Part shown: piece by piece, positions 1,364-29,025 of the stretch
How positions within the stretch are numbered: the first letter of the stretch is position 1
How the letters are laid out: every line of letters starts with the position of its first letter
Program-made: the position numbers and the translations under genes
Notes under the pieces: model-generated
Database searches by the model: none
Told to the model about the DNA's origin: nothing
Seen by the model: only the letters and a program-made list of their open reading frames with translations
NCBI GenBank assembly: GCA_951812855.1
Contig: OX638337.1
Span: 570,001-602,000 of the forward strand
Origin: an uncultured Lentisphaeria bacterium
GTDB taxonomy: Bacteria; Verrucomicrobiota; Lentisphaeria; JABSQK01; JAJFLO01
Direction of reading: 5' to 3'
Length of the DNA: 32,000 bases

Positions 1364-2531
1364 TCATCCATTTTCAGGTCCCGTTTTCCAGCGTCCCGTT
1401 GGTCATTGATTCCGATCAAAATAACACTTGCAAATCTGAGCAGTGATGCCTCGTTTGGGGAAAATGATGCGACGTGTGTTCGTCGCTTTAATCGTTTATT
1501 TATGTTTTCTGACATATTAGTAGCGGTACGTCATCGTCTATGGTGATGTCCGGGCAACTGATATACAGAGAAGCCGTCCTGGATATTATCGTGCATCAAG
1601 GCCGTCGATTTTGATGCTTTTTGTTCCTATTTTCCGATACTGATTTCGAGTAATCGCTCAGCTTCCTTTATCAAGGGGGCATTGAAGATATCCCGAATAT
1701 CCTGGGCAACCTCACGGTGCATTTCTTTTCCTCGATACGTAAGCCGTGGCATTGTACTGAAGGTGAACTTGGCAGCGTTGCCGGGGACTCAGGGGAAGCA
1801 TGTTTTTAATGCTGATTTAAGTCCTTCATGGTCATCAGCTGTTATCATTCTGATCCCTGATAAACCCCGTTTTTTCAAGGATCGGAGAAAATCTCGCCAA
1901 TGGACTTCTGCTTCACTAAAGAGATACACTTACACCGGGAATAGATCGTTTTCCCCCGGTATTCATCCCGATGGCAATAAGGACAGCACATGACCGTACA
2001 GCTCCGTCCTGACGAATTTTTCGCAGCGTGCATCAAGGATTAAATAGGCGGTTTATGAAAGAGTTCTGCAGCACCATTTTTCAAGTTCATCATTCAGCCG
2101 TGCTGTGGCACGGCTGACCCGGTAGCTGCTGACCTGAGTTCCACACAGAGTTTTCATAATCTGCGTTACTTTTCGCGTCGAGACACCTTGACTATACATT
2201 TCTGCTGAAGCCGGGTTTAGAGCCCGTTCGCTGCGTTGTCTTTGCTCAAGAGCTGAAGAATAAAAGCCTTCTTCTCCTCTAACCTGAGGAATCTGAAGGT
2301 CCCGTTTTCCCAGGCGGGTACTCAAGCACTTGGGTTTAAATCCATTGGCATGACATTCACGTTCCGCGGTTCTTTCCCGGGCTTGGGCACCGATAAATTC
2401 GGAACGTTCAATTTTCACAGCCTCGTTTAGCAGCATAGCAAAAGCTAAGCTGTTCCCATTCCTTCAAGTCCATTTTCAAGTATTGCCTGCACAGCTTCGG
2501 TTATACTATTATTATTTTCATTGTGGGTCAT
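1360..2531 (-). mobile_element. IS256-family (mutator-type) transposase gene, heavily degraded
   Basis: The N-terminal half is readable (MTHNENNNSITEAVQAILENGLEGMG.. / ..AMLLNEAVKIERSEFIGAQARERTAERECHANGFKP..MYSQGVSTRKVTQIMKTLCG). The C-terminal half is recognisable only by hopping frames (..YLILDARCEKIRQDGAVRSCAVLIAIG.., ..RQRCQVHLQYN.., ..RTATNMSENINKRLKRRTHVASFSPNEASLLR..). There are several frameshifts and in-frame TAA/TGA/TAG codons. Terminal inverted repeats could not be located. Confidence 0.85.
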
Positions 2532-2940
2532 AATTAGAATCCTTTGTTTATTGGGTACAAAAAAAGAATAATTCATCATGACCTGCGTTTTTATCAACTC
2601 AAAAATTTCCCCCCGGGGAAAACATTCTCTGCTGGTTGTTAGATCAGACAATACTGCTTGTCCTGTCTGGCCCCTCCGCAATGCCCGGCCTGTCGGCCCA
2701 ACCGATTGCTGCTGAAACCGCCCGGGTCCCCCTCCGGTCATGCACCGAGAGAAGTGAAATTACAGAACGAAAGTTACACCTTTTTTAGCTAAAACACTAA
2801 TTTGAATTAAGAAACTGCTAAACTAACTTTTCGGCGATAACTTTACCCTTATATTGCAACAAATACAGATTAAAATAAGATAGACGAATCAAAACTAATT
2901 ATTACTTTAATAATTGGAACTGAAAAATTCATGGTGAACT

Positions 2941-3881: not shown

Positions 3882-5261
3882 TTATGATCTCAGATTCCGT
3901 CGGCTCCGCATATGGCCACGTTCTAAAAATCCGTCATAGTGATGCATAAGCAAATGAGATTCGATTTGCCGAATCGTATCAAGCATTACTCCAACGATAA
4001 TCAACAAGCTGGCACCGCCAAAAAAAGACGCAATTAAAAACGGGATATTTAACTGTTGAGTAAAAATCATTGGACAAAGTGCCAGTGCTGTTAAAAAAAG
4101 AGCACCTGCTGTGGTAACCCTGGTCATTGATTTATCAAGAAAATCTGAAGTTGGTTTTCCCGGTCGGATTCCAGGAACATAAGCACCTTGTCGTTTTAAA
4201 TCGTCAGCAATTTGAATTGGATTAAATTGATTTGCCACCCAGAAAAATGAAAACAGGATAAGTAAACCTGCATACAATGCCATGTATGAAAGAGTTCCAT
4301 AAGAAAACCAACTGCCAACATATCCCATCCATGAAACGCGCGTTGACAGAAAATTAATTATAATAGGCGGAAACATCAAGATTGCACTTGCAAAAATAAT
4401 AGGCATAACATTCGCAAAATTTACACGTAATGGAATATACGAATTTTGAGAAGATGCCCCTTTTCTTCCAGCCATTGCTTTTGCATATTGTACCGGGATC
4501 CGGCGAACACCGACTGTCAAGGCCACTGTTGCTGCTGTAACAAGAATAAACAAGGCAATCAAAATACAAATATGAATCACTGTAAACTGTTGCTCGCCTG
4601 TTCCCTGCGTGCGAAATAAACTCCACATTCCATAAACTGCTGATGGGAGTTGTTCCAAAATTCCAACGGTAATAATCAGCGATGCACCATTTCCAATTCC
4701 ACGATCTGTAATCTGTTCACCTAACCACATTAAAATCATCGTTCCACAGGTCAAAATAATAACTGTCGTTGCTATAAAAGTTCCCCCGGGGTTTATTACG
4801 ATATCCGGTACTCTTTGACCTAATAATGCACTTGGATTCAACATTCCTTTAGCCAACAATCCACCCTGAATTATGCAAATAATCAATGTTAAATACCGAG
4901 TCCATTGAGTGATTTTTTGATAACCGCTTTCGCCTTCACGCTTTAACTTCTCCAATTTGGGAAGAACCGGGGTCATTAGTTGCATAATAATTGAAGCAGA
5001 AATGTAGGGCATAATTCCTAAAGCAGCTACCGCAAACCGCTGCAGTGCTCCACCGCTAAATAAATTGACCATTCCCACAATACCTTGTGAACCACCGGAA
5101 CTTTGTTCAAGTAGTTCGAATATTTTCTGAAGAGCATCAGGATCAATACCAGGACAGGGGACATTTGCAGCAACTCGGCATAATGCAATAATACCCAACG
5201 TAAAAAATATCTTTTTTCGAAGTTCTTTTACTTTTAGACTGTTCGCAAATGCAGATATCAT
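3882..5261 (-). CDS. secY: preprotein translocase subunit SecY
   Basis: 459 aa polytopic membrane protein with typical SecY N-terminus (..LRKKIFFTLGIIALCRV..) and conserved GIMPYISASII and GxSLLI segments. It follows rplO. Confidence 0.95.
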   Translation of the reverse strand: MISAFANSLKVKELRKKIFFTLGIIALCRVAANVPCPGIDPDALQKIFELLEQSSGGSQGIVGMVNLFSGGALQRFAVAALGIMPYISASIIMQLMTPVLPKLEKLKREGESGYQKITQWTRYLTLIICIIQGGLLAKGMLNPSALLGQRVPDIVINPGGTFIATTVIILTCGTMILMWLGEQITDRGIGNGASLIITVGILEQLPSAVYGMWSLFRTQGTGEQQFTVIHICILIALFILVTAATVALTVGVRRIPVQYAKAMAGRKGASSQNSYIPLRVNFANVMPIIFASAILMFPPIIINFLSTRVSWMGYVGSWFSYGTLSYMALYAGLLILFSFFWVANQFNPIQIADDLKRQGAYVPGIRPGKPTSDFLDKSMTRVTTAGALFLTALALCPMIFTQQLNIPFLIASFFGGASLLIIVGVMLDTIRQIESHLLMHHYDGFLERGHMRSRRNLRS

Positions 5262-5364
5262 GTTTTTGACTTATATTTGTTTATCTGGTGCATCGTTTGA
5301 TTTTTATTAGGAAAGGATTTCTATACACATAATGTATCGATTTACTACTTTGGCTGAAAAAATT

Positions 5365-5820
5365 CTATACACTTAACTTAACTAACTTGCATGTTCCTTC
5401 AGCAGCTTCAATCTTAGCCTTAGCCGGTGCTGAAAACTGAGTTGCTTCCACTGTAAGAGCCTTGGAAATTTTTCCGTCTCCCAGTATCTTGATTTCCTTT
5501 ACATTTTTACCAACCATACCTTTTGAAATTAAGACTTCGGCGGTAACATTATCGCCATCCTCAAAGTTTTTTTCCAAAGCCTTTACATTTACCAGGGTAT
5601 ATTCAACATTAGAAGGATGATTAAAACCTCTTTTAGGTAACCTGCGAAACAAAGGAATTTGTCCACCTTCAAAGTAAGATTTTCTGGAATATCCGCTCCT
5701 TGACTTTTGGCCTTTTTCGCCACGCCCACAAGTTCGACCCCAGTTATTTCCATTTCCTCTGCCCACTCTTTTACGGTTTTTACGCGGACACGTATTTTTT
5801 AAATTATTAAGCTTCATCAT
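5365..5820 (-). CDS. rplO: 50S ribosomal protein L15
   Basis: 151 aa, MKLNNL..RKRVGRGNGNNWGRTCGRGEKGQKSRSG.. L15 signature. Located between rpsE and secY. Confidence 0.95.
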   Translation of the reverse strand: MMKLNNLKNTCPRKNRKRVGRGNGNNWGRTCGRGEKGQKSRSGYSRKSYFEGGQIPLFRRLPKRGFNHPSNVEYTLVNVKALEKNFEDGDNVTAEVLISKGMVGKNVKEIKILGDGKISKALTVEATQFSAPAKAKIEAAEGTCKLVKLSV

Positions 5821-5835
5821 GATCTGGTTTATTCC

Positions 5836-6345
5836 TTATAATGAGGTCAAATCCCGCTTCGCTAAAACGGAATCGCGACTCGACAACCTGGATAATGAAA
5901 TGAATGTCGCTTTTACAACGTTAATCGGATTATTAGATCCAAGTGATTTTGTCAAAACATCACTTACTCCAGCTAAATCCAATACTGCTCGCATACCTCC
6001 GCCTGCAATCAATCCGGTACCGGGTGATGCAGGTCTCATCAGAACTCGACCACCACAAAATTTACCCTCAATTTTATGCGGAATTGTATGCTTATAAAGA
6101 GGAACATCTATAATATTTTTCCTGGCAAGTTCATTTCCCTTTCGGATAGCATCTGCAACTTCGTTTGCTTTGCCTAAACCGTAACCTACTTTCCCACTTT
6201 TATTGCCAACAACAACCAACGCACTAAAACTGAAATTACGTCCGCCCTTAACAACTTTACTGCACCGTTTGATACAGACGACTCTGTCTTCAAAGTCCTT
6301 CACGGAAGATACCGCATTTTCTGATTTTGCTTCTTTGGTTGTCAC
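5836..6345 (-). CDS. rpsE: 30S ribosomal protein S5
   Basis: 169 aa, ..[35 protein letters not shown].. S5 signature. Confidence 0.95.
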
Positions 6346-6361
6346 TAAATAAACTCCTATG

Positions 6362-6724
6362 TTAAAATTCTAACCCACATTTTCGGGCAGCCTCAGCAAG
6401 CGTTTTAATTCGACCATGATACTTGAATCCTCCCCGATCAAATATAACCTTTTTAATTCCGGCTGAAAGTGCTTTCTCAGCAACAGCATTTCCCAATATT
6501 TCTGCACCTTTACAATTTAAGCCAACTCTCTTTTTACGCATTTCCTTATCGAGAGTTGAAAGTGATGCGAGTGTATGTCCGGCATCGTCATCTACAAATT
6601 GTACGTAGAGATGTTTACCAGAGATATACACAGAAAATCGAGGAATTTCGGATGTTCCTTTTATTTTTTGACGAATCCGCATATGCCGAATATGTCTAAG
6701 TTTTTTTCTAGATTTTAATGCCAT
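6362..6724 (-). CDS. rplR: 50S ribosomal protein L18
   Basis: 120 aa, ..[43 protein letters not shown]18 signature. Confidence 0.95.
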
Positions 6725-6750
6725 AACAGTTATCTAAAATCCTATCAAAA

Positions 6751-7284
6751 TTATACAGTTTTTCCTTCTTTCATTCGGATATATTCGTCAGCATAACGAA
6801 TTCCCTTACCTTTATATGGTTCTGGTTTCCTAAACTGACGAATCGTAGCACTGACTTGACCGACCCGCTGCTTATCAATTCCATCAACAGTTATTTTTGT
6901 ATTATCGGCTACAGTAATTTTTACATCATCCGGTACTTTATATTCAACGGGATGAGAGTACCCAACATTTATTACCAACTTTTTGCCACTGACCTGTGCA
7001 CGATATCCAACGCCATTGATTAATAACTCTTTTTGGAACCCTGAATCAACGCCTTTAACCATATTTGCAAGCAAACTGCGGGTTAAACCATGCAATGCTT
7101 TGGTTTTACGACTTTCATCGGCAACCGTAACCGTGATTCGATTTTCAATAATTTCTACATTGATAGAATTCGGGATGACATGACTCAATTCACCTCTGCT
7201 GCCAGTGACGGTAACATCCTTGTCTTTGACATTAACCTTGACTTTATCGTTCAATAAAATTGGTTTACTTCCAATTCGTGACAT
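6751..7284 (-). CDS. rplF: 50S ribosomal protein L6
   Basis: 177 aa, MSRIGSKPI....GVGYRA..GYSHPV..EPYKGKGIRY L6 signature. Confidence 0.95.
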   Translation of the reverse strand: MSRIGSKPILLNDKVKVNVKDKDVTVTGSRGELSHVIPNSINVEIIENRITVTVADESRKTKALHGLTRSLLANMVKGVDSGFQKELLINGVGYRAQVSGKKLVINVGYSHPVEYKVPDDVKITVADNTKITVDGIDKQRVGQVSATIRQFRKPEPYKGKGIRYADEYIRMKEGKTV

Positions 7285-7355
7285 AATCCGTTTCTCTAAT
7301 TATTGTAATATTCGGGTAATCTACTAATTTGAGCAAATTGTGACATTTTTATTCG

Positions 7356-7754
7356 TTACCAAACATAACATAAAACTTCGCCACCAAGACTTTCTTTCTC
7401 TGCCTGTTTCCCATTCATCACACCATTCGGGGTTGTCATGATTACAATACCAAGGCCGCCTAAAACACGTGGTATTTCCTTAGCACTGACATATACCCTT
7501 AATGATGGTAGACTAATTCGCTTTAAGCCCTCAATTACATGGGTATTATTTTTATATTTAAGATTGATTTTTAATCTTTTTTTATTGTTGCCGTCATCCT
7601 CAATCGTGTAATCTGCGATATATCCTTCTTTTTTTAATACGTCAACAATTGCATTTTTCAATCTGGATGAAGGCAGAGATACTTCGGGATGCATAACCTT
7701 TCCGGCATTTCTTATTCGTGTCAACATATCTGCGATTGGATCACTCATGTTCAT
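7356..7754 (-). CDS. rpsH: 30S ribosomal protein S8 (true start may be the Met at 7748)
   Basis: MSDPIADMLTRIRNA... and C-terminal ..GGEVLCYVW S8 signature. Confidence 0.95.
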   Translation of the reverse strand: MNMSDPIADMLTRIRNAGKVMHPEVSLPSSRLKNAIVDVLKKEGYIADYTIEDDGNNKKRLKINLKYKNNTHVIEGLKRISLPSLRVYVSAKEIPRVLGGLGIVIMTTPNGVMNGKQAEKESLGGEVLCYVW

Positions 7755-7768
7755 GTCATCTATTCCTT

Positions 7769-7954
7769 TTACCAGCTTGCCTTAATAACACCGGGTAATT
7801 GTCCCACAGCTGCTAATTCTCTAAAGCAGATTCGACAAAGCTTAAAACGTCTCATATAAGCACGCGATCTTCCACAACGCTGACATCTGTTATAAGCCCG
7901 TGTTGAAAATTTAGGTTTCCGATTTGATTTAACTATTAATGACGTTTTTGCCAA
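7769..7954 (-). CDS. rpsZ: 30S ribosomal protein S14, short zinc-binding type Z
   Basis: 61 aa with CQRCGR...CRICFRE Cys pairs. Located between rplE and rpsH. Confidence 0.95.
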
Positions 7955-7964
7955 AATTCACCTC

Positions 7965-8501
7965 TTATTTTCTAAACGGAATTCCCATCATTGACAATAA
8001 CTGGAATCCCTCTTTGTTCGTGTTTGCTGTCGTAATTATATTAATATTCATGCCGATTGTATGTTTCATTTTGTCCAGATTCACCTCCGTAAATATGGAT
8101 TGATCACTAATGCCCATACTGAAGTTTCCCCGACCGTCAAATGATTTTGGGGAAATACCCCGAAAATCTCTAACTCGCGGGAGTGCGACATTCACCAATC
8201 TGGTAAAAAAATCATACATTCGCCTTCCTCTCAGTGTTACTGCTACGCCAACGTTGCTGCCTTTCCTCAACTTAAATCCGGCAACATTTACTCTTGCTCT
8301 TGTAATATAAGGTTTTTGCCCGGTAATATCGGCGATTGTTCTAATCGCCTCATCAAAAACATCTCTATCTTTTCCTGTAGCAATTCCCGAGCTTATCACA
8401 ATCTTCACTATCTTTGGTACTTGAAAAACATTGCTGTATCCACATGACTCTTTTAATTCGGGGATAATTTCTTCTTTGTATTTTGTTGCTATCAGAGACA
8501 T
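7965..8501 (-). CDS. rplE: 50S ribosomal protein L5
   Basis: 178 aa, ..FQVPKIVKIVISSG..GQKPYITRARVNVAGFKLRKG.. L5 signature. Confidence 0.95.
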   Translation of the reverse strand: MSLIATKYKEEIIPELKESCGYSNVFQVPKIVKIVISSGIATGKDRDVFDEAIRTIADITGQKPYITRARVNVAGFKLRKGSNVGVAVTLRGRRMYDFFTRLVNVALPRVRDFRGISPKSFDGRGNFSMGISDQSIFTEVNLDKMKHTIGMNINIITTANTNKEGFQLLSMMGIPFRK

Positions 8502-8517
8502 GGTGCTATTTTTTACC

Positions 8518-8787
8518 TTACGATTTAGCTTTTATTCGCTTATCATAAACATCTTTTAACATTATATTTGAAACATGAATCGGACATTCTTTATCAACAT
8601 ACCCACCCTGAGGATTCTGGGATGTCTTTTTTAGGGTTACTTTTCGAACATTGATTCCTTCAACAACAACACGATTTTTTGTCTTATCAATATATTTAAC
8701 TTTACCAACTCGCTTTTCAAAAGGTAAATGCCGACTATCACCACTGATAACAACAACAGTGTTTCCTTTATGTATTTTCCGTGACAT
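8518..8787 (-). CDS. rplX: 50S ribosomal protein L24 (start moved to the internal Met; the track's 8817 start would overlap rplN)
   Basis: MSRKIHKGNTVVVISGD..GKVKYIDKTKNRVVVEGINV.. KOW-domain L24. ATG at 8787 lies just after the rplN stop (8789-8791). Confidence 0.9.
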   Translation of the reverse strand: MSRKIHKGNTVVVISGDSRHLPFEKRVGKVKYIDKTKNRVVVEGINVRKVTLKKTSQNPQGGYVDKECPIHVSNIMLKDVYDKRIKAKS

Positions 8788-8788
8788 T

Positions 8789-9154
8789 TTATAGAACCTC
8801 AGGTGCAAGTGAAACAATTTTCATAAAATTCTTTTCACGCAGTTCCCTGGCAATCGGTCCGAAGACCCGCGTCCCCCGCGGATTTAAGCTGTCATCTATA
8901 ACAACCCCGGAGTTCCGATCGAACCGTAAACGGGATCCGTCTTTACGTCGAATTGGCGATGACGTCCTAACGACCACCACCTTTACAACTTCACCTTTTT
9001 TTACCATTCCTCCCGGAGTCGCTTCTTTTACGGCTGCAGTAACCAAATCACCAACACCGGCATATCGCTTTCTCTGCCCTAAAACACAAATGGCAACGAC
9101 TCTTTTAGCTCCGGAATTATCAGCTATTTCTAAACTTGTTTCGGCTTGAATCAT
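8789..9154 (-). CDS. rplN: 50S ribosomal protein L14
   Basis: 121 aa, [30 protein letters not shown].. L14 signature. Confidence 0.95.
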
Positions 9155-9164
9155 AAGACTATTA

Positions 9165-9452
9165 TTATTCTGTTGTTCGGATTATTTCTGTCAAGCGCCA
9201 TCGTTTTAACTTACTGAGAGGCCGTGTTTCAACAATTTTAACGACATCTCCCAATTTTGCTTCATTTTTCTCATCATGAACATGGAAACGTTTACTCCTG
9301 ACCAGAATTTTCTTGTATTTTTTATGAGCTGTTTTACGATCAACCCTAATTATAATGGTTTTTTCCTGACAGTCACTGACAACGACACCAACACGCTCTT
9401 TCCTGAGCCCTTGCGATTTTTCCGTTTCTTCACTCATTTGTAGATTCTTCAC
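9165..9452 (-). CDS. rpsQ: 30S ribosomal protein S17
   Basis: 95 aa, ..[47 protein letters not shown].. S17 signature. Confidence 0.93.
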
Positions 9453-9454
9453 TA

Positions 9455-9652
9455 TTATTTCGATTTAACAACACGTTGATGCTGTTCTGTTTTAAATCGT
9501 GCAATCTCCCGTCGCAACAACCGTAGTCTTGCGGTATTTTCCAATTGCCCGATTTTTGCCTGAATGCGTAGATTTAGATGCTCCTTATTTGCATCCTCCA
9601 ACTGCTTATTCAGCTCACTGTCAGTTAATTCATGAATTTCACTTACTCTCAT
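9455..9652 (-). CDS. rpmC: 50S ribosomal protein L29
   Basis: 65 aa, ..EIHELTDSELNKQLEDANKEHLNLRIQ.. L29 signature. Located between rplP and rpsQ. Confidence 0.93.
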   Translation of the reverse strand: MRVSEIHELTDSELNKQLEDANKEHLNLRIQAKIGQLENTARLRLLRREIARFKTEQHQRVVKSK

Positions 9653-9665
9653 AACAACCCTTTAA

Positions 9666-10079
9666 TTATGACGCTCTGCTTAATAAACGACAACGCAAAC
9701 CAAGTTTATTTGCGGCTCTGGACAATCCCTCACGAGCGACTGTTGCCGAACAACCTTTGACTTCAAAAATAACACGCCCCGGCTTAACAACAGCGACCCA
9801 ACTTTCAGGGTTGCCTTTTCCTTTACCCATTCGGGTTTCTAACGGCTTTTTAGAGATCGGCTTATCTGGAAACATTCGAATCCATATCTGACCACGACGC
9901 TGCATATGACGTGTTACAGCAATACGGGCAGCCTCAATTTGACGATTAGTAATCCAACCAGATTCCAGTACCTGAAGGCCAAAATCTCCGAAATCGAGCT
10001 TATTGTTTTTGTACGCGTTTCCGGCGTAACTTCCCCGCTGAACCTTTCGGTACTTTACCCTCTTTGGTAATAACGGCAT
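9666..10079 (-). CDS. rplP: 50S ribosomal protein L16
   Basis: 137 aa, [16 protein letters not shown]...[11 protein letters not shown].. L16 signature. An AAGGAGG Shine-Dalgarno lies just upstream of the ATG, inside the rpsC tail. Confidence 0.95.
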
Positions 10080-10719
10080 CTTTGTCTTCCTCCTTTTTAT
10101 CAGGCAGACACAACCAAGTTTTTATTCCTATAATTCCAGCTGTTGTGTTTGCTTCTGCAAAACCATAATCAATATTGGCTTTCAGTGTATGTAATGGCGT
10201 TTTACCATCTTTAAATTCCTGACTTCGTGCAAGCTCTGCACCGCCTAATCGACCACCACATCTTATTTTTATACCCAAAGCACCCGTATCCATGGCTGTT
10301 TGAATGCTCTTTTTCATTGCACGGCGAAACCCGATTCTGCGCTCAAGCTGCAACCCGATATTATCACATATCAGCTGTGCATTTAATTCAGGCTTTTTTA
10401 TTTCAACAACGTCGACATAAATATCTTTTCCATTCGTCATTTTGTACAATGCATCTTTTAAAACATCATATTCCGATTTTTTCCGGCCAAATACTAAACC
10501 TGGCCGAGCTGAATGCACCGTGACACGCACCCTGTTGGCAAATCGTTCGATTTGAATCCGGGATACAGCAGCCTGACTTAACTGTTTACCGACATAGTCG
10601 CGAATTTTTAAATCTTCGTGCAGTAAGTCTCCGTAATTTTTCTTACTTGCAAACCACCGACCGCGCCAGTCTTTTGTAACCGACACACGAAGACCAATTG
10701 GATTTACTTTTTGTCCCAC
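10000..10719 (-). CDS. rpsC: 30S ribosomal protein S3, with a basic C-terminal tail that overlaps rplP by 80 nt
   Basis: 239 aa, MGQKVNPIGLRVSVTKDWRGRWFA.. with KH and S3-C domains. The tail is ..[33 protein letters not shown]. Confidence 0.93.
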   Translation of the reverse strand: MGQKVNPIGLRVSVTKDWRGRWFASKKNYGDLLHEDLKIRDYVGKQLSQAAVSRIQIERFANRVRVTVHSARPGLVFGRKKSEYDVLKDALYKMTNGKDIYVDVVEIKKPELNAQLICDNIGLQLERRIGFRRAMKKSIQTAMDTGALGIKIRCGGRLGGAELARSQEFKDGKTPLHTLKANIDYGFAEANTTAGIIGIKTWLCLPDKKEEDKDAVITKEGKVPKGSAGKLRRKRVQKQ

Positions 10720-20589: not shown

Positions 20590-20865
20590 CGGTTTAAAAA
20601 CTATTTCCCCGGCGGTTGTTGCCTCCCGTAATCTTAATATTCATTCGTGCATTCTTCTGAAAAAAGTCACGGAATCCTCCCTCATGTCGCGATTAGATAA
20701 CAGATTGTTGATTTTTATTTTCAAATCAAGTTGTATTAATTCGCTGATTTTTCCTATTTAAGTATAGAAACACTATTCAGTTAACTGGGTATTAGATAAA
20801 AACCATCTACCGACTATTCAGCTATTCATAGTCATTTACTAATATGTGCAGTTTTTGGGGGTAAC

Positions 20866-21553
20866 ACTGGAAATGATGTTGGAGGAGTCAGCAGAGGGCA
20901 TAGTACCGCACGGTCAGTACGGGAAAGCCTGAACCTGTCAGGTGTACCTCAGCCACCGAACCGCAACAACCGGAAACGAATCCTAACGGGGGAGCCGGCT
21001 CATATTTGCCCGTCAACACCGGGAACGAATTCGCTCAGCGAGCAGGGAAAAGATATATTATTCGGCAAGAGTTTGTCGGGTACTCATCCCAAAATCAACA
21101 GGGGGTCAACGTCCGTCAGGAATCCCGATGAGGTAAAGATGGCAACTTGCAGTCGTAAAGGATACCGGCGGATGAGCAGTAATCGCATCGTCCAACAGGT
21201 CTTGAGCAATCAATGGTTATGGAATCAAGGTGTCCCTGACATGAGGCAGCAATCAATGGATCGTTCTTCACTGCGGAGCCTCCGGCTCCTGACGAACAGG
21301 AAGTTCTCCGATAAACGAAAATTATGTTTGAGATGTCCAATAACAGGTTCTATAGCTGACCGACGGCGTAATTGCTTCTTCTGATTCAATACCTTATTGA
21401 AGAGTGCAAGCTGTTCGTTATCATGATTTAACTGCTTCGGGGGCAGCTTGCGATCAGGTTCTCGGACCGGACGGTCTGCAATCGTGCGAATTCTTAGGGC
21501 AGCCTTCCGGGCTTTCGCATAACCTGATGGATAACGACGCCCTCTTTGGGCAT
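20866..21553 (-). mobile_element. IS5-family (DDE_Tnp_1-type) transposase remnant, C-terminal third only and frameshifted, plus about 250 bp of unexplained 3' sequence
   Basis: The minus strand reads ..LNQKKQLRRRSAIEPVIGHLKHNFRLSENFL.. then, after a frameshift, ..GSAVKNDPLIAAS... This is the (R)R.AIEPVIGHLK....L.RN.LKG..GD..N..LAA C-terminal signature. The block is visibly more GC-rich than its flanks. No N-terminal or catalytic part and no second end is present. Confidence 0.7.
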
Positions 21554-21726
21554 TCAGTTAATTCTTCGGTTATTTCATTAACTCAATATAATACATAACA
21601 TATTGAATAATAGTATATTAAATCGTTTTCAAGGATCGGTTAATGCAGCATTTCAATGCATAATAATGTCATTTTATTCCTACAGACAGCCTCCTCAGAG
21701 ATATAAGAGGCTAAGCCTGAAAGATG

Positions 21727-24346: not shown

Positions 24347-24537
24347 TGAATTCTCTTATAGTTAAATTCGAACGATAACCCGTGCAAATTGAAAAATCAT
24401 AACATAACAGGTATTAAAATCAGGGTGATACCTAAAAAAACTCCTTCGGAATTAGGATAATATCAACCTCTAAAAGATCAAGTATATTATTATTTATTTA
24501 GAAGGTGACCAGGATAATACGTGTCCATTCCTGATGA

Positions 24538-24681
24538 AAAGCATTAATTATTACGTTAACGACAACAGACGATCCGCTTTAAATTGAAAAATGCTATGAA
24601 CCAGGATGTAATTTTTATGTCACAAAACCTGTTGACTATGGCAAGTTTGTCAGTACAATTAAGAATTTGGCAGGGTACTGA
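24538..24681 (+). pseudogene. response-regulator receiver-domain remnant (last ~45 codons, with in-frame TAA)
   Basis: KALIITLTTTDDPL*IEKCYEPGCNFYVTKPVDYGKFVSTIKNLAGY* matches the beta4-alpha5 end of CheY-like receivers (..vImLTs....d...c.e.GAn.YitKPvd...f...i..l). It is bounded upstream by TGA (24535-24537). TAA is at 24580-24582. Confidence 0.45.
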
Positions 24682-24801
24682 AGGTGTGTAAGATTCCACA
24701 ATTTAAGGCTGTAGAAAAACAGTCGTCGCAGTAACCGTGGCATGTAAATTTGATACAAATTACCTGCATGAGTATTAAAACTGAAATAATTATTAAAAAA
24801 T

Positions 24802-25613: not shown

Positions 25614-27344
25614 TCAATCGCCTAATGGCTGAGAGTCCGATTTCTCATTATTTTTAGCTGTGTAATCAAATTTAGCAACCATATCCCATAGGCATTTTAT
25701 CGCTTCATCTTTCTGCCTGCTTTCCACAAGATCAGCCAATGTTGACAATTTCCGGGAGTATAATTTCTTACTGATCACATCAGTTTTGTGAACATTTATT
25801 TTAGGAACTTCAGTTGCCGTAACCCGCTCCCCATCAATGATTAACTCTTCGTGTAATTTTTCCCCCGGCCGCAGACCAATATATTTAATTTCGATATCTT
25901 CATCCGGAATTAAACCTGACAGTTTAATCATATTATACGCAAGATCTGAAATTTTTATTGGATCACCCATTTCCAGTAAAAATGTTTCTCCACCTTCCCC
26001 AATTGAACCCGCCTGCAACACCAGTTCTACAGCTTCCGGTATTGTTAGAAAATATCGCGTAACATCAGGATGTGTAATTGTAATCGGGCCACCCTTTTCA
26101 ATTTGTTTTTTGAATATCGGAACAACACTTCCATGGCTGCCCAGGACATTGCCAAATCTAACTGAAAATAATTTTGTCTTATTAGATTCTGATGATAAAA
26201 GAACAAGTTCGGCACATCGTTTTGTCGCACCCATAATGCTTTTAGGGTTAACTGCTTTATCAGTTGATATTAGTAAAAGCTTGTTACAATCATATTTTGC
26301 GGCTGCATCCACTAAATTCTTCGTTCCAAAAATATTATTCTGAATTGCAGAAACCGGATGTTCTTGCATTAATCCAACATGCTTAAAAGCGGCTGCATGA
26401 AATACACAATACGGCGAATATTTATGGAATAAATCGTCAATAAATTTCCTGTCCTGAATGTCACCAAAAACGGCGACAACAGGAAGTCCGGGATAGTGAC
26501 TCTTAAGTTCCTCATGGATTTCAAATAATGGTGTTTCTCCAATTTCCAAAATCAGCAGCAGGCTGGGATTATAAGATGAAATTTGCCTGGCCAGTTCAGA
26601 GCCGATTGAACCACCTGCTCCGGTAACCAAGACACATTTATCTTTTAAATTTCCGAAAACTCTATCCCTGTCAAGTTTAATCGGGTCTCGCCCAAGCAAA
26701 TCTTCTACCCGGACGCTGCGAATTTGCTGAATTTGCAGTTTCCCTGAAATAAAATCTTTTATTTCAGGCAGTATCTTGAATTGTACATTTTGGCCGATAC
26801 AACTTTCAACCAGTCCCCGGACAAACTTTTTTCCAGCAGAAGGAATTGCAATTAGAACTTCGTTGATTGAATGTTCATGAACAATTTTCTCCAGACTTTT
26901 TGTATCGCCAATTACATGAAACCCGTGAATAGTTGTTCCATGCAGGGTCTTATTGTCATCTAAGAAACCAACGACATAATGGCTTTTTCCAAGACTATTT
27001 CGCACCTCCCGCAATGCTGCTTCTCCGCAGCCTCCGGCTCCGATAATCAGAGTTTGTACACAGTGACTTTTATCTGATTGAAATTCGGACAATTCCTGAA
27101 AAAATCGAACTGAAAATCGAACACCGCCAAACACCATCATTGATGTCAGCCAGTCAATCAGAAAAATTGCACGCGGGAATCCATGTCCATATAACAATAC
27201 AACAGTGAAAACAAAGATGATGGTACTGCTTGTAGTCGCTTTTGTTAAATGGATTAAATCATCCATTCCTGCATAACGCCATAATCCCTGATAAAGCCTG
27301 AATTTTGCTAAACACAGTGCTTTGATTGTAATGATAAGAGGCAA
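25614..27344 (-). CDS. polysaccharide biosynthesis protein, CapD/PglF/WbpM-type NDP-sugar 4,6-dehydratase (enzyme body; the 5' end is problematic, see findings)
   Basis: 576 aa from a TTG. It has ..LYQGLWRYAGMDDL.. and TM segments, two Rossmann motifs (IIGAGGCG, VTGAGGSIGSEL), and catalytic ..STDKAV.P.S.MGATKR... The frame stays open upstream through the palindrome to a TGA at 27390-27392. Confidence 0.85.
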   Translation of the reverse strand: MPLIITIKALCLAKFRLYQGLWRYAGMDDLIHLTKATTSSTIIFVFTVVLLYGHGFPRAIFLIDWLTSMMVFGGVRFSVRFFQELSEFQSDKSHCVQTLIIGAGGCGEAALREVRNSLGKSHYVVGFLDDNKTLHGTTIHGFHVIGDTKSLEKIVHEHSINEVLIAIPSAGKKFVRGLVESCIGQNVQFKILPEIKDFISGKLQIQQIRSVRVEDLLGRDPIKLDRDRVFGNLKDKCVLVTGAGGSIGSELARQISSYNPSLLLILEIGETPLFEIHEELKSHYPGLPVVAVFGDIQDRKFIDDLFHKYSPYCVFHAAAFKHVGLMQEHPVSAIQNNIFGTKNLVDAAAKYDCNKLLLISTDKAVNPKSIMGATKRCAELVLLSSESNKTKLFSVRFGNVLGSHGSVVPIFKKQIEKGGPITITHPDVTRYFLTIPEAVELVLQAGSIGEGGETFLLEMGDPIKISDLAYNMIKLSGLIPDEDIEIKYIGLRPGEKLHEELIIDGERVTATEVPKINVHKTDVISKKLYSRKLSTLADLVESRQKDEAIKCLWDMVAKFDYTAKNNEKSDSQPLGD

Positions 27345-27349
27345 AGTCT

Positions 27350-27388
27350 GGAGAAATACCCCCCCCCATGGGGGGGGGGTATTTCTCC
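27350..27388. repeat. 39-nt near-perfect palindrome ggagaaata-C9-AT-G10-tatttctcc
   Basis: Direct reading gives 27350-27358 ggagaaata, 27359-27367 nine C, 27368-27369 AT, 27370-27379 ten G, 27380-27388 tatttctcc. The arms are exact reverse complements except for one extra G. Confidence 0.95.
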
Positions 27389-27389
27389 A

Positions 27390-27632
27390 TCAAACCTTAA
27401 TAAAAATGCCAGATAATAGCTGAAACCAGCTAAAATTATATGAACAGATATAACAGATATGTGTCTGAATTTTAATAAAAATTTCATAATTAATTAGACA
27501 GGGATTTACCAGACAGATTTTTTTGATAAAGTTGTGTTTTTTATCTTCAATGTTATGATAACAGATTATGAATAACATCCAACATCTTAATAGATAATAT
27601 GTTATAAACTTATAATTTAAAAATTCAATCAC
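27390..27632 (-). CDS. 80-codon ORF (GTG start) in the same frame as the capD-like body, ending at the TGA; probably the detached, decaying N-terminal membrane segment of that gene
   Basis: A stop-free 80-codon frame in very AT-rich sequence is unlikely by chance. Its tail ..ICYICSYNFSWFQLLSGIFIKV loosely resembles TM1 of PglF/CapD proteins. It is in phase with 25614..27344. Confidence 0.4.
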   Translation of the reverse strand: MIEFLNYKFITYYLLRCWMLFIICYHNIEDKKHNFIKKICLVNPCLINYEIFIKIQTHICYICSYNFSWFQLLSGIFIKV

Positions 27633-27678
27633 ATTCTACTAATAAATGTAAACGGCTTTTTAATTATTCAGTACAATA

Positions 27679-29025
27679 ATGAAACAATTACACAAAAATC
27701 TCCGGAAGAAAAATAAGCAATACATCTGGCACCCATTTACGCAAATGAAAGATTATTTGGAATCGGAGCCTACAATCATAGATCGAGGAGAAGGAATTTT
27801 CCTCATTGATGTTGACGGAAACCGGTTTTATGACGGAGTCTCATCTCTTTGGGTAAACGTTCATGGTCATTCCAACTCTGATATTAATAACGCGATAATT
27901 GATCAGATAAAAAAAATCAGTCATTCAACCCTTTTGGGTCAGGCAAATGTTCCAGCAGTTCTATTAGCTGAAAAAATTGTTAGTATTACACCAAGTAATT
28001 TAACAAGAGTTTTTTATTCAGACAGCGGTTCAGAAGCTGTCGAGATCGGCTTAAAAATTGCTTATCAGTACTGGAAATTAAAAGGGAAAAATAAAAAACG
28101 ATCATTTATTGCAATGACAAACGCATACCATGGCGACACGATTGGTGCTACAAGCGTTGGCGGCATGGATCTTTTTCACGCGACTTATCAGGATCTATTA
28201 TTCAAAACCTGTCGAACCCCCTATCCTGATGTTTATAGATTTGATGGTTCAGTAGAGGAATGTCGTATTGATTGCCTCACTAAACTTAATAATTTAATTA
28301 AATCAAAACATGACCAGACAGCAGGTTTAATTGTAGAACCTCTGGTACAGGGTGCAGCAGGCATGATCTTGATGCCGGACGGATTTATGAAACACATCGA
28401 GTCAATTTGCATCGATCACAACATCCTGCTTCTTACAGACGAAGTTGCTACCGGCTTCGGTAGAACCGGTAAGATGTTTGCCTGTGAACATGATGAGGTT
28501 AAACCTGATATAATGATGATTGCTAAAGGCTTGACCGGTGGCTATTTACCATTAGCAGCGACATTAACTACAGAGGCTGTTTATTCTGAATTTCTTGGCG
28601 AATATTCTGAAAAGAAAACGTTTTTTCATGGGCATTCTTATACCGGGAATCAACTTGGATGTGCAGCTGCAATTGCCAACATTGATTTGTTTGAGAAAAC
28701 CAGGTTAATTGAGTCACTCCCTCAAAAATCATTGTTGATATCGAAACGATTAGGAGAACTCAGTTCTCATCCCCATGTCGGAGACATTCGAATTAAGGGG
28801 ATGATGACAGGAATAGAATTGATCAAAGACAAAAACTCAAAACTTGACTATCCGTGGGAAGAAAAAATGGGAATTAAAGTATGCGATGAATGCAGAAAGC
28901 AGGGAATGATAATACGCCCGCTCGGGAACGTCGTTGTCTTTATGCCACCATTAGTCAGTACCAATGAAGAACTGTCCGAAATGATATCAATCTTGATAAA
29001 GGCTATAAATATCGTTTGCAAATAA
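27679..29025 (+). CDS. bioA: adenosylmethionine-8-amino-7-oxononanoate aminotransferase
   Basis: 448 aa class-III aminotransferase. ..IWHPFTQM.., ..SLWVNVHGH.., ..DEVATGFGRTGKMFA.. with PLP lysine context ..MIAKGLTGGYLPL... Confidence 0.92.
   Translation: MKQLHKNLRKKNKQYIWHPFTQMKDYLESEPTIIDRGEGIFLIDVDGNRFYDGVSSLWVNVHGHSNSDINNAIIDQIKKISHSTLLGQANVPAVLLAEKIVSITPSNLTRVFYSDSGSEAVEIGLKIAYQYWKLKGKNKKRSFIAMTNAYHGDTIGATSVGGMDLFHATYQDLLFKTCRTPYPDVYRFDGSVEECRIDCLTKLNNLIKSKHDQTAGLIVEPLVQGAAGMILMPDGFMKHIESICIDHNILLLTDEVATGFGRTGKMFACEHDEVKPDIMMIAKGLTGGYLPLAATLTTEAVYSEFLGEYSEKKTFFHGHSYTGNQLGCAAAIANIDLFEKTRLIESLPQKSLLISKRLGELSSHPHVGDIRIKGMMTGIELIKDKNSKLDYPWEEKMGIKVCDECRKQGMIIRPLGNVVVFMPPLVSTNEELSEMISILIKAINIVCK

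What the first reader, a model, noticed from the sequence alone, without database searches (positions are those of the whole stretch)
27344..27632. C9-AT-G10 palindrome, TGATG junction and a one-base frame offset at the 5' end of the capD/pglF-like gene
Four facts can be read directly from the sequence.
(1) 27350-27388 is ggagaaata-C9-AT-G10-tatttctcc, an 18-bp-arm palindrome that is perfect except for one extra G.
(2) On the coding (minus) strand an 80-codon ORF (27632-27393) ends at TGA 27392-27390. The very same frame then continues without interruption through the palindrome (W R N T P P P W G G V F L Q T) into the 576-aa dehydratase body.
(3) The TGA overlaps an ATG (27390-27388, TGATG), the classic stop-start coupling arrangement. 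As sequenced, that ATG is out of frame with the body by one base and yields only a 43-aa peptide.
(4) Deleting one base from either homopolymer places the ATG in frame. With G10 reduced to G9, which also makes the palindrome perfect, the product reads MEKYPPPWGGVFLQTLPLIIT.. and restores a full-length enzyme.
Runs of 9-10 C or G are classic slipped-strand mispairing sites, and surface-polysaccharide genes are classic phase-variable targets. A self-complementary C-run/G-run pair around a start codon is an arrangement I do not recognise as described. The alternatives are a fixed nonsense mutation in a decaying gene, or a homopolymer sequencing error.
Basis: partly seen in the sequence, partly recalled or inferred. 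Interest (0 to 1): 0.72.

Follow-up and report, generated by a model that had tools for sequence, protein, structure and literature searches.

The report
Frameshifted sugar-dehydratase gene at hairpin homopolymers

Summary
The sequence facts are correct. 27349-27389 is a perfect 19-bp inverted repeat with a 3-nt spacer (+ strand C9-AT-G10). It holds the only C or G runs of 7 or more in the 32 kb.

The gene model is wrong. The 80-aa ORF and the TGATG junction are off-frame shadows. TGATG is TTT-GAT-GG, the F-D-G of the conserved LRFDG motif, and it is also present in an intact relative.

The real N-terminus is the third frame, starting at ATG 27487 (a 59-codon ORF). It aligns with 89 of 121 homologues; the 80-aa ORF aligns with none. 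Joining it to the 576-codon body needs +1 nt (C10/G10 or C11/G9 on the coding strand) or -2 nt.

The same C10-AT-G9 occurs in four contigs from two strains that are 99.4% identical. Random assembly error is therefore unlikely, and no length variation was seen. The body shows no decay.

The nearest relative (82% aa) has no tract and carries two partner genes that are missing here.

Best reading: a real frameshift at a derived, slippage-prone hairpin tract. Whether it switches reversibly or is an early pseudogene is unresolved. Interest is modest.

The parts
27349..27389 (.). Perfect 19-bp inverted repeat with a 3-nt spacer. Arms are 27349-27367 and 27371-27389. On the + strand it reads TGGAGAAATA-C9-ATG-G9-TATTTCTCCA; on the coding (-) strand it reads C10-AT-G9.
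   Evidence: The RNA and DNA folds containing it have z = -6.5 and -6.75. The consensus scan flags it as terminator-like on both strands.
27359..27367 (+). C9 run on the + strand (the G9 run of the coding strand). It encodes GGG in the N-terminal frame.
   Evidence: Apart from its partner, it is the only C or G run of 7 or more in the window.
27370..27379 (+). G10 run on the + strand (the C10 run of the coding strand). It encodes PPP plus the first base of the His codon.
27308..27487 (-). True 5' end of the pglF/capD-like gene. ATG at 27487; 59 codons (first transmembrane helix, LRFDG motif, PPPHGGG), then out-of-frame codons up to TAG 27310-27308.
   Evidence: ORF; alignment with intact homologues, with phmmer hits to 89 of 121.
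25614..27389 (-). Body frame of the dehydratase, open from just after TGA 27392-27390. The mechanical ORF starts at TTG 27344 and is 576 aa. It carries CoA_binding_3 and Polysacc_synt_2 domains. Gene callers start it at ATG 27266 (550 aa, P0001).
27390..27632 (-). It is a spurious off-frame ORF that overlaps the real N-terminal coding sequence and the upstream spacer.
   Evidence: No Pfam hit. 0 phmmer hits. The same shadow frame exists in L003.
27488..27678 (.). 191-bp divergent spacer between the pglF-like gene (-) and bioA (+, 27679-29025). In the relative L003 this position holds two extra genes: a DegT-type aminotransferase and a small Bac_transf phosphoglycosyl transferase.
   Evidence: Promoter-like matches here are not above chance.

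Best explanation
The feature is a genuine frameshift inside a lineage-specific, hairpin-forming double homopolymer. On the coding strand it reads C10-AT-G9. It lies in the codons for the variable loop between the first two transmembrane helices of a PglF/CapD/WbpM-type membrane-bound UDP-HexNAc 4,6-dehydratase gene.

As sequenced, translation from the real start (ATG 27487) reads ..LRFDGEIPPPHGGG, leaves the body frame and stops after 59 codons. The full-length 623-624-aa enzyme is therefore not made; the gene is OFF in both strains sampled.

One extra C or G, or two fewer, restores a full-length protein. The loop length would then be normal for the family.

Inferred, not shown:
- G/C runs of 9-10 are intrinsic slipped-strand hot spots, so the OFF state should revert at an elevated rate. 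The locus would then behave mechanically as an ON/OFF contingency switch, whether or not selection favours that.
- The perfect 19-bp stem with a minimal 3-nt loop most likely arose by hairpin-templated (quasi-palindrome / template-switch) mutation. This stretch is the most diverged internal segment of the gene.
For: Shown:
- The true N-terminal frame is established.
- In-silico tract variants behave as follows. C10/G10, C11/G9, C9/G8, C8/G9 and C10/G7 give 623-624 aa. C10/G9, C9/G9, C9/G10 and the other combinations tested give 59-76 aa.
- The LRFD-to-WRY spacing would be 39 (-2 nt) or 40 (+1 nt). Homologues have 39 (23 cases) or 40 (17 cases).
- The same tract lengths occur in the window, in L001 and L002 (100% identical, about 21-22 kb contigs) and in L005. 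L005 is a second strain, a 1.94-Mb contig, with 52 SNPs over 16.4 kb. Random consensus error is therefore unlikely.
- The body is not degraded. It deviates at 7 of 147 columns that are at least 90% conserved, the same number as the intact relative P0002, and 5 of the 7 are shared.
- Between the two strains the body shows 5 synonymous and 3 non-synonymous codon changes, similar to the neighbouring genes at 11:9.
- The closest relative (82% aa, 75% nt) has no tract.
- The palindrome window is 44% identical to the relative against 76% for the whole gene. Only windows around it and in the non-homologous 3' tail score as low.

From the literature:
- Template switching creates perfect stems (PMC8794818, PMC7202029).
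- G-tract ON/OFF switches exist in coding regions (PMC2193922, PMC9187656).
Against: - No tract-length polymorphism was seen in four contigs from two strains. A fast switch would often differ between strains.
- No in-frame allele exists among about 15 billion proteins. The cluster holds only two 550-aa forms.
- No other long G/C tract occurs in about 37 kb of this genome.
- The gene stands alone. The aminotransferase and phosphoglycosyl transferase that flank it in the relative are absent here. No close orthologue of the aminotransferase (at least 64% identity) lies on the 1.94 or 1.95 Mb contigs.
- All the data appear to come from one long-read technology, judged from the contig names. A systematic homopolymer miscall is therefore not excluded.
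Confidence: 0.45

Rival explanations
1. Fixed pseudogene. The frameshift is an irreversible-in-practice inactivation of an orphaned gene in a genome undergoing reduction. The tract is only the place where the lesion happened, and nothing selects for switching.
For: - Tract lengths are identical in two strains.
- Relative to L003, the window lacks the two partner genes upstream. It also lacks a response regulator and histidine kinase on the other side of the neighbouring Cld-like gene.
- There is no close DegT orthologue on the genome contigs.
- Other decayed elements lie in the window: a Mutator-family transposase fragment, and an ORF-poor stretch with a group II intron fragment and a possible transposase-like remnant.
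- Substitution density between the strains is 0.52% in the body, against 0.19% in neighbouring genes and about 0.55% in intergenic DNA.
- A relative was found in a marine sponge metagenome, which fits a host-associated lifestyle.
Against: - 576 codons remain open with no second lesion.
- Conserved-column deviations are no more frequent than in the intact relative.
- Strain differences are 5 synonymous to 3 non-synonymous, not the roughly 1:3 expected for neutral decay. My binomial estimate is p of about 0.03, on tiny counts.
- The relative's DegT is closest to named gammaproteobacterial sequences at 65-68%. The partner genes may therefore be a gain in the relative rather than a loss here.
Confidence: 0.27
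2. Homopolymer consensus error. The real sequence is in frame, for example a spacer-less C10-AT-G10 palindrome, and the gene is simply intact with an odd PPPHGGG loop.
For: - One added base gives both a perfect 20-bp-arm palindrome and a 624-aa protein with family-typical spacing.
- The body looks fully functional.
- Contig names (ptg...c, atg...l) suggest long-read metagenome assemblies, in which runs of 10 or more are the main residual error class (own knowledge).
Against: - Four contigs, including an independently assembled second strain, give the same asymmetric C10/G9.
- Runs of A8, T8 and T9 inside neighbouring genes do not break their ORFs.
- The sequence as read is already a perfect hairpin (19 bp + 3 nt).
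Confidence: 0.1
3. Recoding. The frame is restored in a fraction of products without any DNA change. One route is RNA polymerase realignment that adds one G or C on the run, possibly helped by the nascent hairpin. The other is -1 ribosomal slippage on C CCC CCC or G GGG GGG. A -1 shift is exactly the direction needed.
For: - The body frame is the -1 frame of the N-terminal ORF.
- Homopolymeric heptamers are present.
- Hairpin-stimulated transcriptional slippage is known (Penno 2015, cited in PMC5009743).
- The tract is stable across two strains and the body appears constrained.
Against: - There is no stimulatory structure downstream of the slip site, because the hairpin contains the slip site itself.
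- The closest relative has no tract or frameshift, so the arrangement is not conserved.
- Bacterial RNA polymerase slippage is documented mainly on A/T runs (PMC6260861).
Confidence: 0.08
4. N-terminally shortened but working enzyme. Ribosomes reinitiate at ATG 27266, 42 nt after the N-terminal ORF's stop. The 550-aa protein would lack the first two transmembrane helices (inferred from the alignment) and keep the rest of the N-terminal membrane region and the catalytic domain. The frameshift would then be tolerated rather than inactivating.
For: - Gene callers predict exactly this 550-aa product.
- The solved PglF structure is a 366-aa soluble fragment, so the catalytic part folds without the membrane region.
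- The body appears constrained.
Against: - There is no convincing ribosome-binding site before ATG 27266, read.
- In the N-terminal alignment of 13 full-length homologues plus P0002, all keep this N-terminal region.
- The hairpin looks like a terminator and lies upstream of that start.
Confidence: 0.08
5. One reading: an 80-aa upstream ORF translationally coupled by TGATG to a start at 27390, with a -1 nt change restoring the enzyme.
For: The ORF, the TGATG and the -1 arithmetic exist in the sequence.
Against: - The 80-aa ORF has no homologue.
- TGATG is codons F-D-G of a conserved motif and is also present in the intact relative.
- The real N-terminus lies in another frame.
Confidence: 0.01

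Closest known systems
Slipped-strand (homopolymer) phase-variable genes for surface glycans, e.g. Neisseria pgtA poly-G (PMC2193922), Helicobacter and Campylobacter poly-G/C tracts (PMC2823697), the Bifidobacterium breve pilus G-tract (PMC9187656)
   Same: A G/C run of 9 or more sits in the 5' coding part of a glycan-pathway gene. The tract lies in a poorly conserved protein segment. Tract length modulo 3 decides between a full-length and a truncated product.
   Different: - Here there are two complementary tracts forming a 19-bp hairpin.
- No length variation was observed between strains.
- No other such tracts occur in about 37 kb.
- The organism is an uncultured PVC-like, probably sponge-associated bacterium.
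- The gene stands without its pathway partners.
Quasi-palindrome / template-switch mutagenesis (PMC7202029; PMC8794818; in coding sequence, PMC8604942)
   Same: There is a cluster of changes relative to the nearest relative. It coincides exactly with a perfect inverted repeat that has a minimal loop, inside coding sequence.
   Different: The event cannot be reconstructed, because the only outgroup is 75% identical. The origin of the homopolymer cores is not explained by template switching alone.
Campylobacter jejuni PglF (WlaL, PDB 5BJU), and CapD/WbpM-type membrane-bound UDP-GlcNAc 4,6-dehydratases
   Same: The Polysacc_synt_2 catalytic domain (E = 7.6e-110), the CoA_binding_3 linker, the N-terminal hydrophobic region with the LRFDG motif, and the TGAGGSIG and STDKAV motifs.
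   Different: The reading frame is interrupted after codon 43. The PglE-like and PglC-like partners seen in the relative are absent at this locus.
Hairpin-stimulated transcriptional slippage (Roseiflexus IS630; Penno 2015, via PMC5009743), and rescue of poly(A) frameshifts in endosymbionts (own knowledge: Tamas et al. 2008)
   Same: A homopolymer lies next to, or within, a strong nascent-RNA hairpin that has terminator-like features. A one-base addition in the RNA would restore the frame.
   Different: The runs are G/C rather than A/T. The slip site lies inside the stem. There is no conservation and no transcript data.

Membership tests
PglF/CapD/WbpM-type NDP-sugar 4,6-dehydratase (Pfam Polysacc_synt_2) | PF02719 catalytic domain above the gathering score | tested here: met
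   367 bits against a cut-off of 20.2, covering profile positions 1-291 of 293; 5BJU, E = 9e-84.
PglF/CapD/WbpM-type NDP-sugar 4,6-dehydratase (Pfam Polysacc_synt_2) | N-terminal hydrophobic region with the LRFD motif, plus the CoA_binding_3 linker | tested here: met
   This holds only when the frame starting at ATG 27487 is joined to the body.
PglF/CapD/WbpM-type NDP-sugar 4,6-dehydratase (Pfam Polysacc_synt_2) | Uninterrupted reading frame giving a protein of about 600-640 aa | tested here: not met
   as sequenced there is a 59-aa ORF plus a 576-aa ORF in different frames.
PglF/CapD/WbpM-type NDP-sugar 4,6-dehydratase (Pfam Polysacc_synt_2) | Dehydratase activity on UDP-GlcNAc | not testable with these tools
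   NCBIfam equivalogs (PseB, FnlA) score below their cut-offs. The substrate is inferred from the family only.
Slipped-strand phase-variable (contingency) locus | Simple repeat of mutable length (a G/C run of about 8 or more) inside the ORF, where length sets the frame | tested here: met
Slipped-strand phase-variable (contingency) locus | Tract length differs between strains, reads or clones | tested here: not met
   C10/G9 in 4 contigs from 2 strains. Power is low, because there are no reads and all additional contigs come from a single assembly record (ERZ18545485).
Slipped-strand phase-variable (contingency) locus | Reversible ON/OFF switching of the phenotype | not testable with these tools
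   This needs culture, reporter constructs or deep amplicon data.
Slipped-strand phase-variable (contingency) locus | Genome holds several such tracts | tested here: inconclusive
   No other run of 8 or more occurs in about 37 kb. The remaining 1.9 Mb was not available.
Pseudogene | Disrupted frame relative to intact orthologues | tested here: met
Pseudogene | Relaxed constraint or additional lesions | tested here: inconclusive
   There is no second lesion, and conserved columns are kept as well as in P0002. The synonymous to non-synonymous count is 5:3. However, substitution density is 2.7 times that of the neighbouring genes.
Programmed -1 ribosomal frameshift site | Slippery heptamer, a downstream stimulator at 5-9 nt, and conservation in relatives | tested here: not met
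   Homopolymer heptamers exist. But the hairpin contains them rather than following them, and the closest relative has an uninterrupted gene without the tract.
Intrinsic (bidirectional) terminator | GC-rich stem followed by a U-rich tail, with an A-rich 5' flank | tested here: inconclusive
   flags it on both strands (8 overlapping calls against 0.3 expected). The tail UAUUUCUCC is only moderately U-rich, and the site lies 108 nt inside a coding sequence.

The most novel reading that the evidence does not exclude
The C10-AT-G9 hairpin is a selected, working switch rather than an accident. It would be a self-complementary two-tract element in which either arm can slip at the DNA level, or the nascent-RNA hairpin promotes a one-base realignment. 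Either route would toggle or titrate production of the full-length PglF-like dehydratase, and so a surface glycan, in a sponge-associated PVC-type bacterium. I know of no described phase-variation or recoding element built from two complementary homopolymers that pair with each other.
Probability: 0.2. Interest if true: 0.6.

Novelty: new member of a known kind. Interest (0 to 1): 0.3.

Why it matters
If the tract really switches, it would extend homopolymer phase variation of glycan genes to an uncultured, host-associated PVC-like lineage. It would also add a hairpin-forming two-tract design, which bears on how non-B DNA and slippage interact.

If it does not switch, it is a clean snapshot of very early gene death in a shrinking symbiont genome: one lesion in an otherwise pristine gene whose pathway partners are absent at the locus.

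There is also a practical lesson. Off-frame ORFs and TGATG overlaps inside AT-rich coding sequence can mimic split genes and translational coupling. The correct repair of this gene is +1 or -2 nt, not -1.

Tried and rejected
- Pattern scans. I scanned 185,579 species-representative genomes and the JGI metagenome collection with GAAATACCCCCCN{0,14}GGGGGGTATTTC. All 32 hits are unrelated hairpins with mixed-sequence loops, many in Mycobacterium MAGs and other GC-rich contigs. None is Cn-AT-Gn, and the source genome is not in those collections. The motif is therefore not a detectable repeat family, and no further alleles were recovered.\n- Exact-protein look-ups of the 550-aa product, its cluster mate and the adjacent bioA returned only one ENA assembly record (ERZ18545485). 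No short-read contigs or other samples were found.\n- The exact 59-aa N-terminal ORF is not in the protein collection.\n- A search with the relative's DegT aminotransferase found no close orthologue on the source genome's contigs. A distant paralogue would not have been seen.\n- A G6PD search for taxonomy gave only unnamed close relatives. The named distant hits are Planctomycetota, Lentisphaeria and others. One relative's read set comes from the sponge Mycale hentscheli.\n- Accession searches in the literature found nothing on the source genome.\n- The promoter scan of the 191-bp spacer is not above chance.\n- Rfam has no family at the hairpin.\n- My local pattern search used a C9/G9 pattern, which cannot match across the indel, so it was uninformative.\n- Rejected: that the palindrome is an inserted mobile element.
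Full report
**1. The observation**

The sequence is as described. On the + strand, 27350-27388 reads ggagaaata-C9-AT-G10-tatttctcc. The repeat finder reports it as a perfect 19-nt inverted repeat (27349-27367 / 27371-27389) with a 3-nt spacer. So "one extra G" is the same thing as a perfect hairpin with a minimal loop.

- These are the only C or G runs of 7 or more in the 32-kb window, which is 39% G+C.
- A 101-nt stretch of RNA containing the hairpin folds at -47.1 kcal/mol, z = -6.5. A 61-nt stretch as DNA has z = -6.75. No shuffle of 200 does as well.
- The 80-aa ORF, the TGA/ATG overlap and the short ORF opened by that ATG are all there.

**2.

Three frames are open through the palindrome on the minus strand.

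The closest intact homologue is P0002 (635 aa, 82% identical over the whole length). It begins MQDILKFRRLFVVVLHVILAGLSYYLAFLLRFDGAIPIKQLDIFLLTLPLII...

Results of phmmer against the 121 homologues retrieved:
- the first 43 residues of the 59-aa ORF hit 89 of them (best E = 1e-13);
- the 80-aa ORF hits none;
- the 44-aa ORF hits none.

The 80-aa ORF also has no Pfam match.

The TGATG is TTT-GAT-GG, the F-D-G of the conserved LRFDG motif. The intact relative L003 has the same TGATG, and its off-frame likewise ends ..ILIKV*W. The "stop-start coupling" is therefore a frame shadow of real coding sequence.

**3. What repair the gene needs**

The body frame is the -1 frame of the N-terminal ORF. Rebuilding the gene with different run lengths on the coding strand gave these products:

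| Run lengths | Product |
|---|---|
| C10/G10 | 624 aa (..GEIPPPHGGGVFLQTLPLII..) |
| C11/G9 | 624 aa (..PPPPWGGVFLQ..) |
| C9/G8, C8/G9, C10/G7 | 623 aa |
| C10/G9 (observed), C9/G9, C9/G10 and the other combinations tested | 59-76 aa |

Among 59 homologues the LRFD-to-WRY spacing is 39 (23 cases) or 40 (17 cases). So both in-frame states are normal for the family. The tract sits in a loop that varies freely between homologues.

**4. What the gene is**

The joined protein has CoA_binding_3 (residues 70-241) and Polysacc_synt_2 (residues 286-567, E = 7.6e-110) domains. The closest solved structure is C. jejuni PglF/WlaL 5BJU (E = 9e-84, catalytic part only). The NAD motif VTGAGGSIG and the STDKAV motif can be read directly in the sequence. 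It is a PglF/CapD/WbpM-type membrane-bound NDP-HexNAc 4,6-dehydratase. The exact substrate is inferred only, because NCBIfam equivalogs score below their cut-offs.

**5. Other copies of the locus**

The 550-aa product that gene callers predict (P0001) is on three contigs, and its cluster mate P0121 is on a fourth.

- L001 and L002 are 22-kb and 21-kb contigs, 100% identical to the window over 16.4 and 8.9 kb.
- L005 comes from a 1.94-Mb contig of a second strain. It has 52 substitutions and 3 indels over 16.4 kb.
- All four carry exactly C10-AT-G9 on the coding strand.
- No in-frame allele exists in the protein collection.
- The adjacent bioA leads to the same contigs only.

Random consensus error is therefore unlikely. 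A systematic miscall is not excluded, because all the data seem to come from one kind of long-read assembly (judged from the contig names). No length variation was seen.

**6. State of the body**

Against 147 alignment columns that are at least 90% conserved in 112 other homologues, the window protein deviates at 7. The intact relative also deviates at 7, and 5 of these are shared.

Between the two strains:
- the body differs at 9 nucleotides, giving 5 synonymous and 3 non-synonymous codon changes;
- the neighbouring genes together show 11 synonymous and 9 non-synonymous;
- differences per base are 0.52% in the body, 0.19% in the neighbours and about 0.55% in intergenic DNA.

The ratio argues against long neutral decay. 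My binomial estimate is p of about 0.03 against a 1:3 expectation, on very small counts. The higher density argues weakly the other way. I call this inconclusive, leaning towards a recent lesion or continuing constraint.

**7. Context**

In the nearest relative (L003, GCA_021772675.1, 75% nt identity) the gene is intact and has no tract. It is preceded by a DegT/PseC-like aminotransferase and a small Bac_transf phosphoglycosyl transferase. That is a plausible dehydratase-aminotransferase-transferase trio.

- In the window those two genes are replaced by a 191-bp spacer before bioA.
- A response regulator and histidine kinase on the other side of the Cld-like gene are missing as well.
- A search with the relative's DegT found nothing on the 1.94 or 1.95 Mb contigs among the best 120 hits, all at least 64% identical.
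- The nearest named hits of that DegT are gammaproteobacterial, so gain in the relative is an alternative to loss here.
- The window also holds a Mutator-family transposase fragment, and an ORF-poor stretch with a group II intron fragment and a possible transposase-like remnant.
- Distant named homologues are Planctomycetota, Lentisphaeria, Verrucomicrobia and Kiritimatiellia.
- A relative with 88%-identical G6PD occurs in a Mycale hentscheli sponge metagenome.

The picture is a roughly 1.95-Mb, PVC-like, probably host-associated genome with some decay.

**8. Origin of the palindrome**

- It is not an insertion. Coding length is preserved to within one codon.
- It is not a repeated element detectable elsewhere. 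Scans of the genome and metagenome collections found only unrelated hairpins.
- The 41-nt palindrome window is 44% identical to the relative, against 76% for the gene. Only windows around it and in the non-homologous 3' tail score as low.

A perfect stem with a 3-nt loop, coinciding with a cluster of changes, is the signature of hairpin-templated (quasi-palindrome or template-switch) mutation (PMC7202029, PMC8794818, PMC8604942). This is an inference. One outgroup at 75% identity cannot reconstruct the event.

**9. Mechanism and verdict**

I estimate about 0.9 probability that the frameshift is real in the majority genotype of both strains. On that reading, the full-length enzyme is not made from this DNA.

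| Reading | Probability |
|---|---|
| Real frameshift at a slippage-prone tract, likely reversible | 0.45 |
| Early, effectively fixed pseudogene of an orphaned gene | 0.27 |
| Consensus error | 0.10 |
| Rescue by transcriptional or -1 ribosomal slippage | 0.08 |
| Tolerated truncation with reinitiation at ATG 27266 | 0.08 |

The reversible reading rests on established knowledge of phase-variable loci (PMC2193922, PMC2823697, PMC9187656): G/C runs of 9-10 slip at elevated rates, and here +1 nt restores the frame.

The hairpin also resembles a bidirectional intrinsic terminator. That would further silence the gene, but it is untested.

**10. Novelty**

A homopolymer frameshift in a glycan gene is a known kind of thing. 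The pairing of two complementary tracts into one hairpin is unusual, and I found no description of it. Nothing here shows that it has a function, so interest is modest.

Noticed in passing
window 20650-21700: A 1.1-kb ORF-poor stretch between the HNH gene and the 6-phosphogluconolactonase gene. It contains an Rfam group II intron D1-D4 match (20849-20929, 53 bits). A short ORF (21225-21389, -) contains 'AIEPVIGHLKHNF', which to my eye resembles the C-terminus of some IS transposases; no family search was run on it. The two strains differ here by a 51-nt indel (21117-21167). It looks like decayed mobile elements.
   Followed up: partly
window 2053-2436 (-): A 127-aa ORF matches only positions 33-157 of the 379-position Mutator-family transposase profile (PF00872, E = 3e-28). 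It is a truncated transposase in an ORF-poor stretch (1092-2941).
   Followed up: no
window 2605-2623: A second, small palindrome of a C-run followed by a G-run with A/T flanks: TTTCCCCCCGGGGAAAA (C6G4). It lies in the same ORF-poor stretch. The style matches the main feature (C-run longer than G-run), but it is short. It could be a terminator or chance.
   Followed up: no
L003 8094-9854 and 12745-14932, compared with window 27488-27678 and 24352-24801: Relative to the closest genome, the window lacks four genes on either side of the pglF-like/Cld-like pair. These are a DegT aminotransferase, a Bac_transf, a response regulator and a HAMP/HisKA kinase. Only 43-nt and 168-nt matching stretches remain around the rubredoxin gene. 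This is either local gene loss here or gain in the relative.
   Followed up: partly
window 27031-27033: The two strains differ by three adjacent nucleotides, which changes Gly to His at position 105 of the 576-aa body ORF (in the GAGGCGE stretch). It is a multinucleotide change, and homologues vary at this position.
   Followed up: no
L006, L011, L013, L017 and others: In MAGs labelled Mycobacterium or Actinomycetota, GAAATACCCCCC-loop-GGGGGGTATTTC hairpins recur with conserved flanks (acacacattaac ... catttatt). They are often near contig ends, which suggests a repeated element or the terminator of a mobile element. They are unrelated to this window.
   Followed up: no
window 3882-10719 (-): Part of the ribosomal protein cluster (S3, L16, an ORF at the L14 position, L5, S8, L6, L18, S5, L15, SecY). 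Beyond S3, a YqeY-like gene follows after an 840-nt gap where L22/S19/L2 would be expected. The cluster appears split.
   Followed up: no
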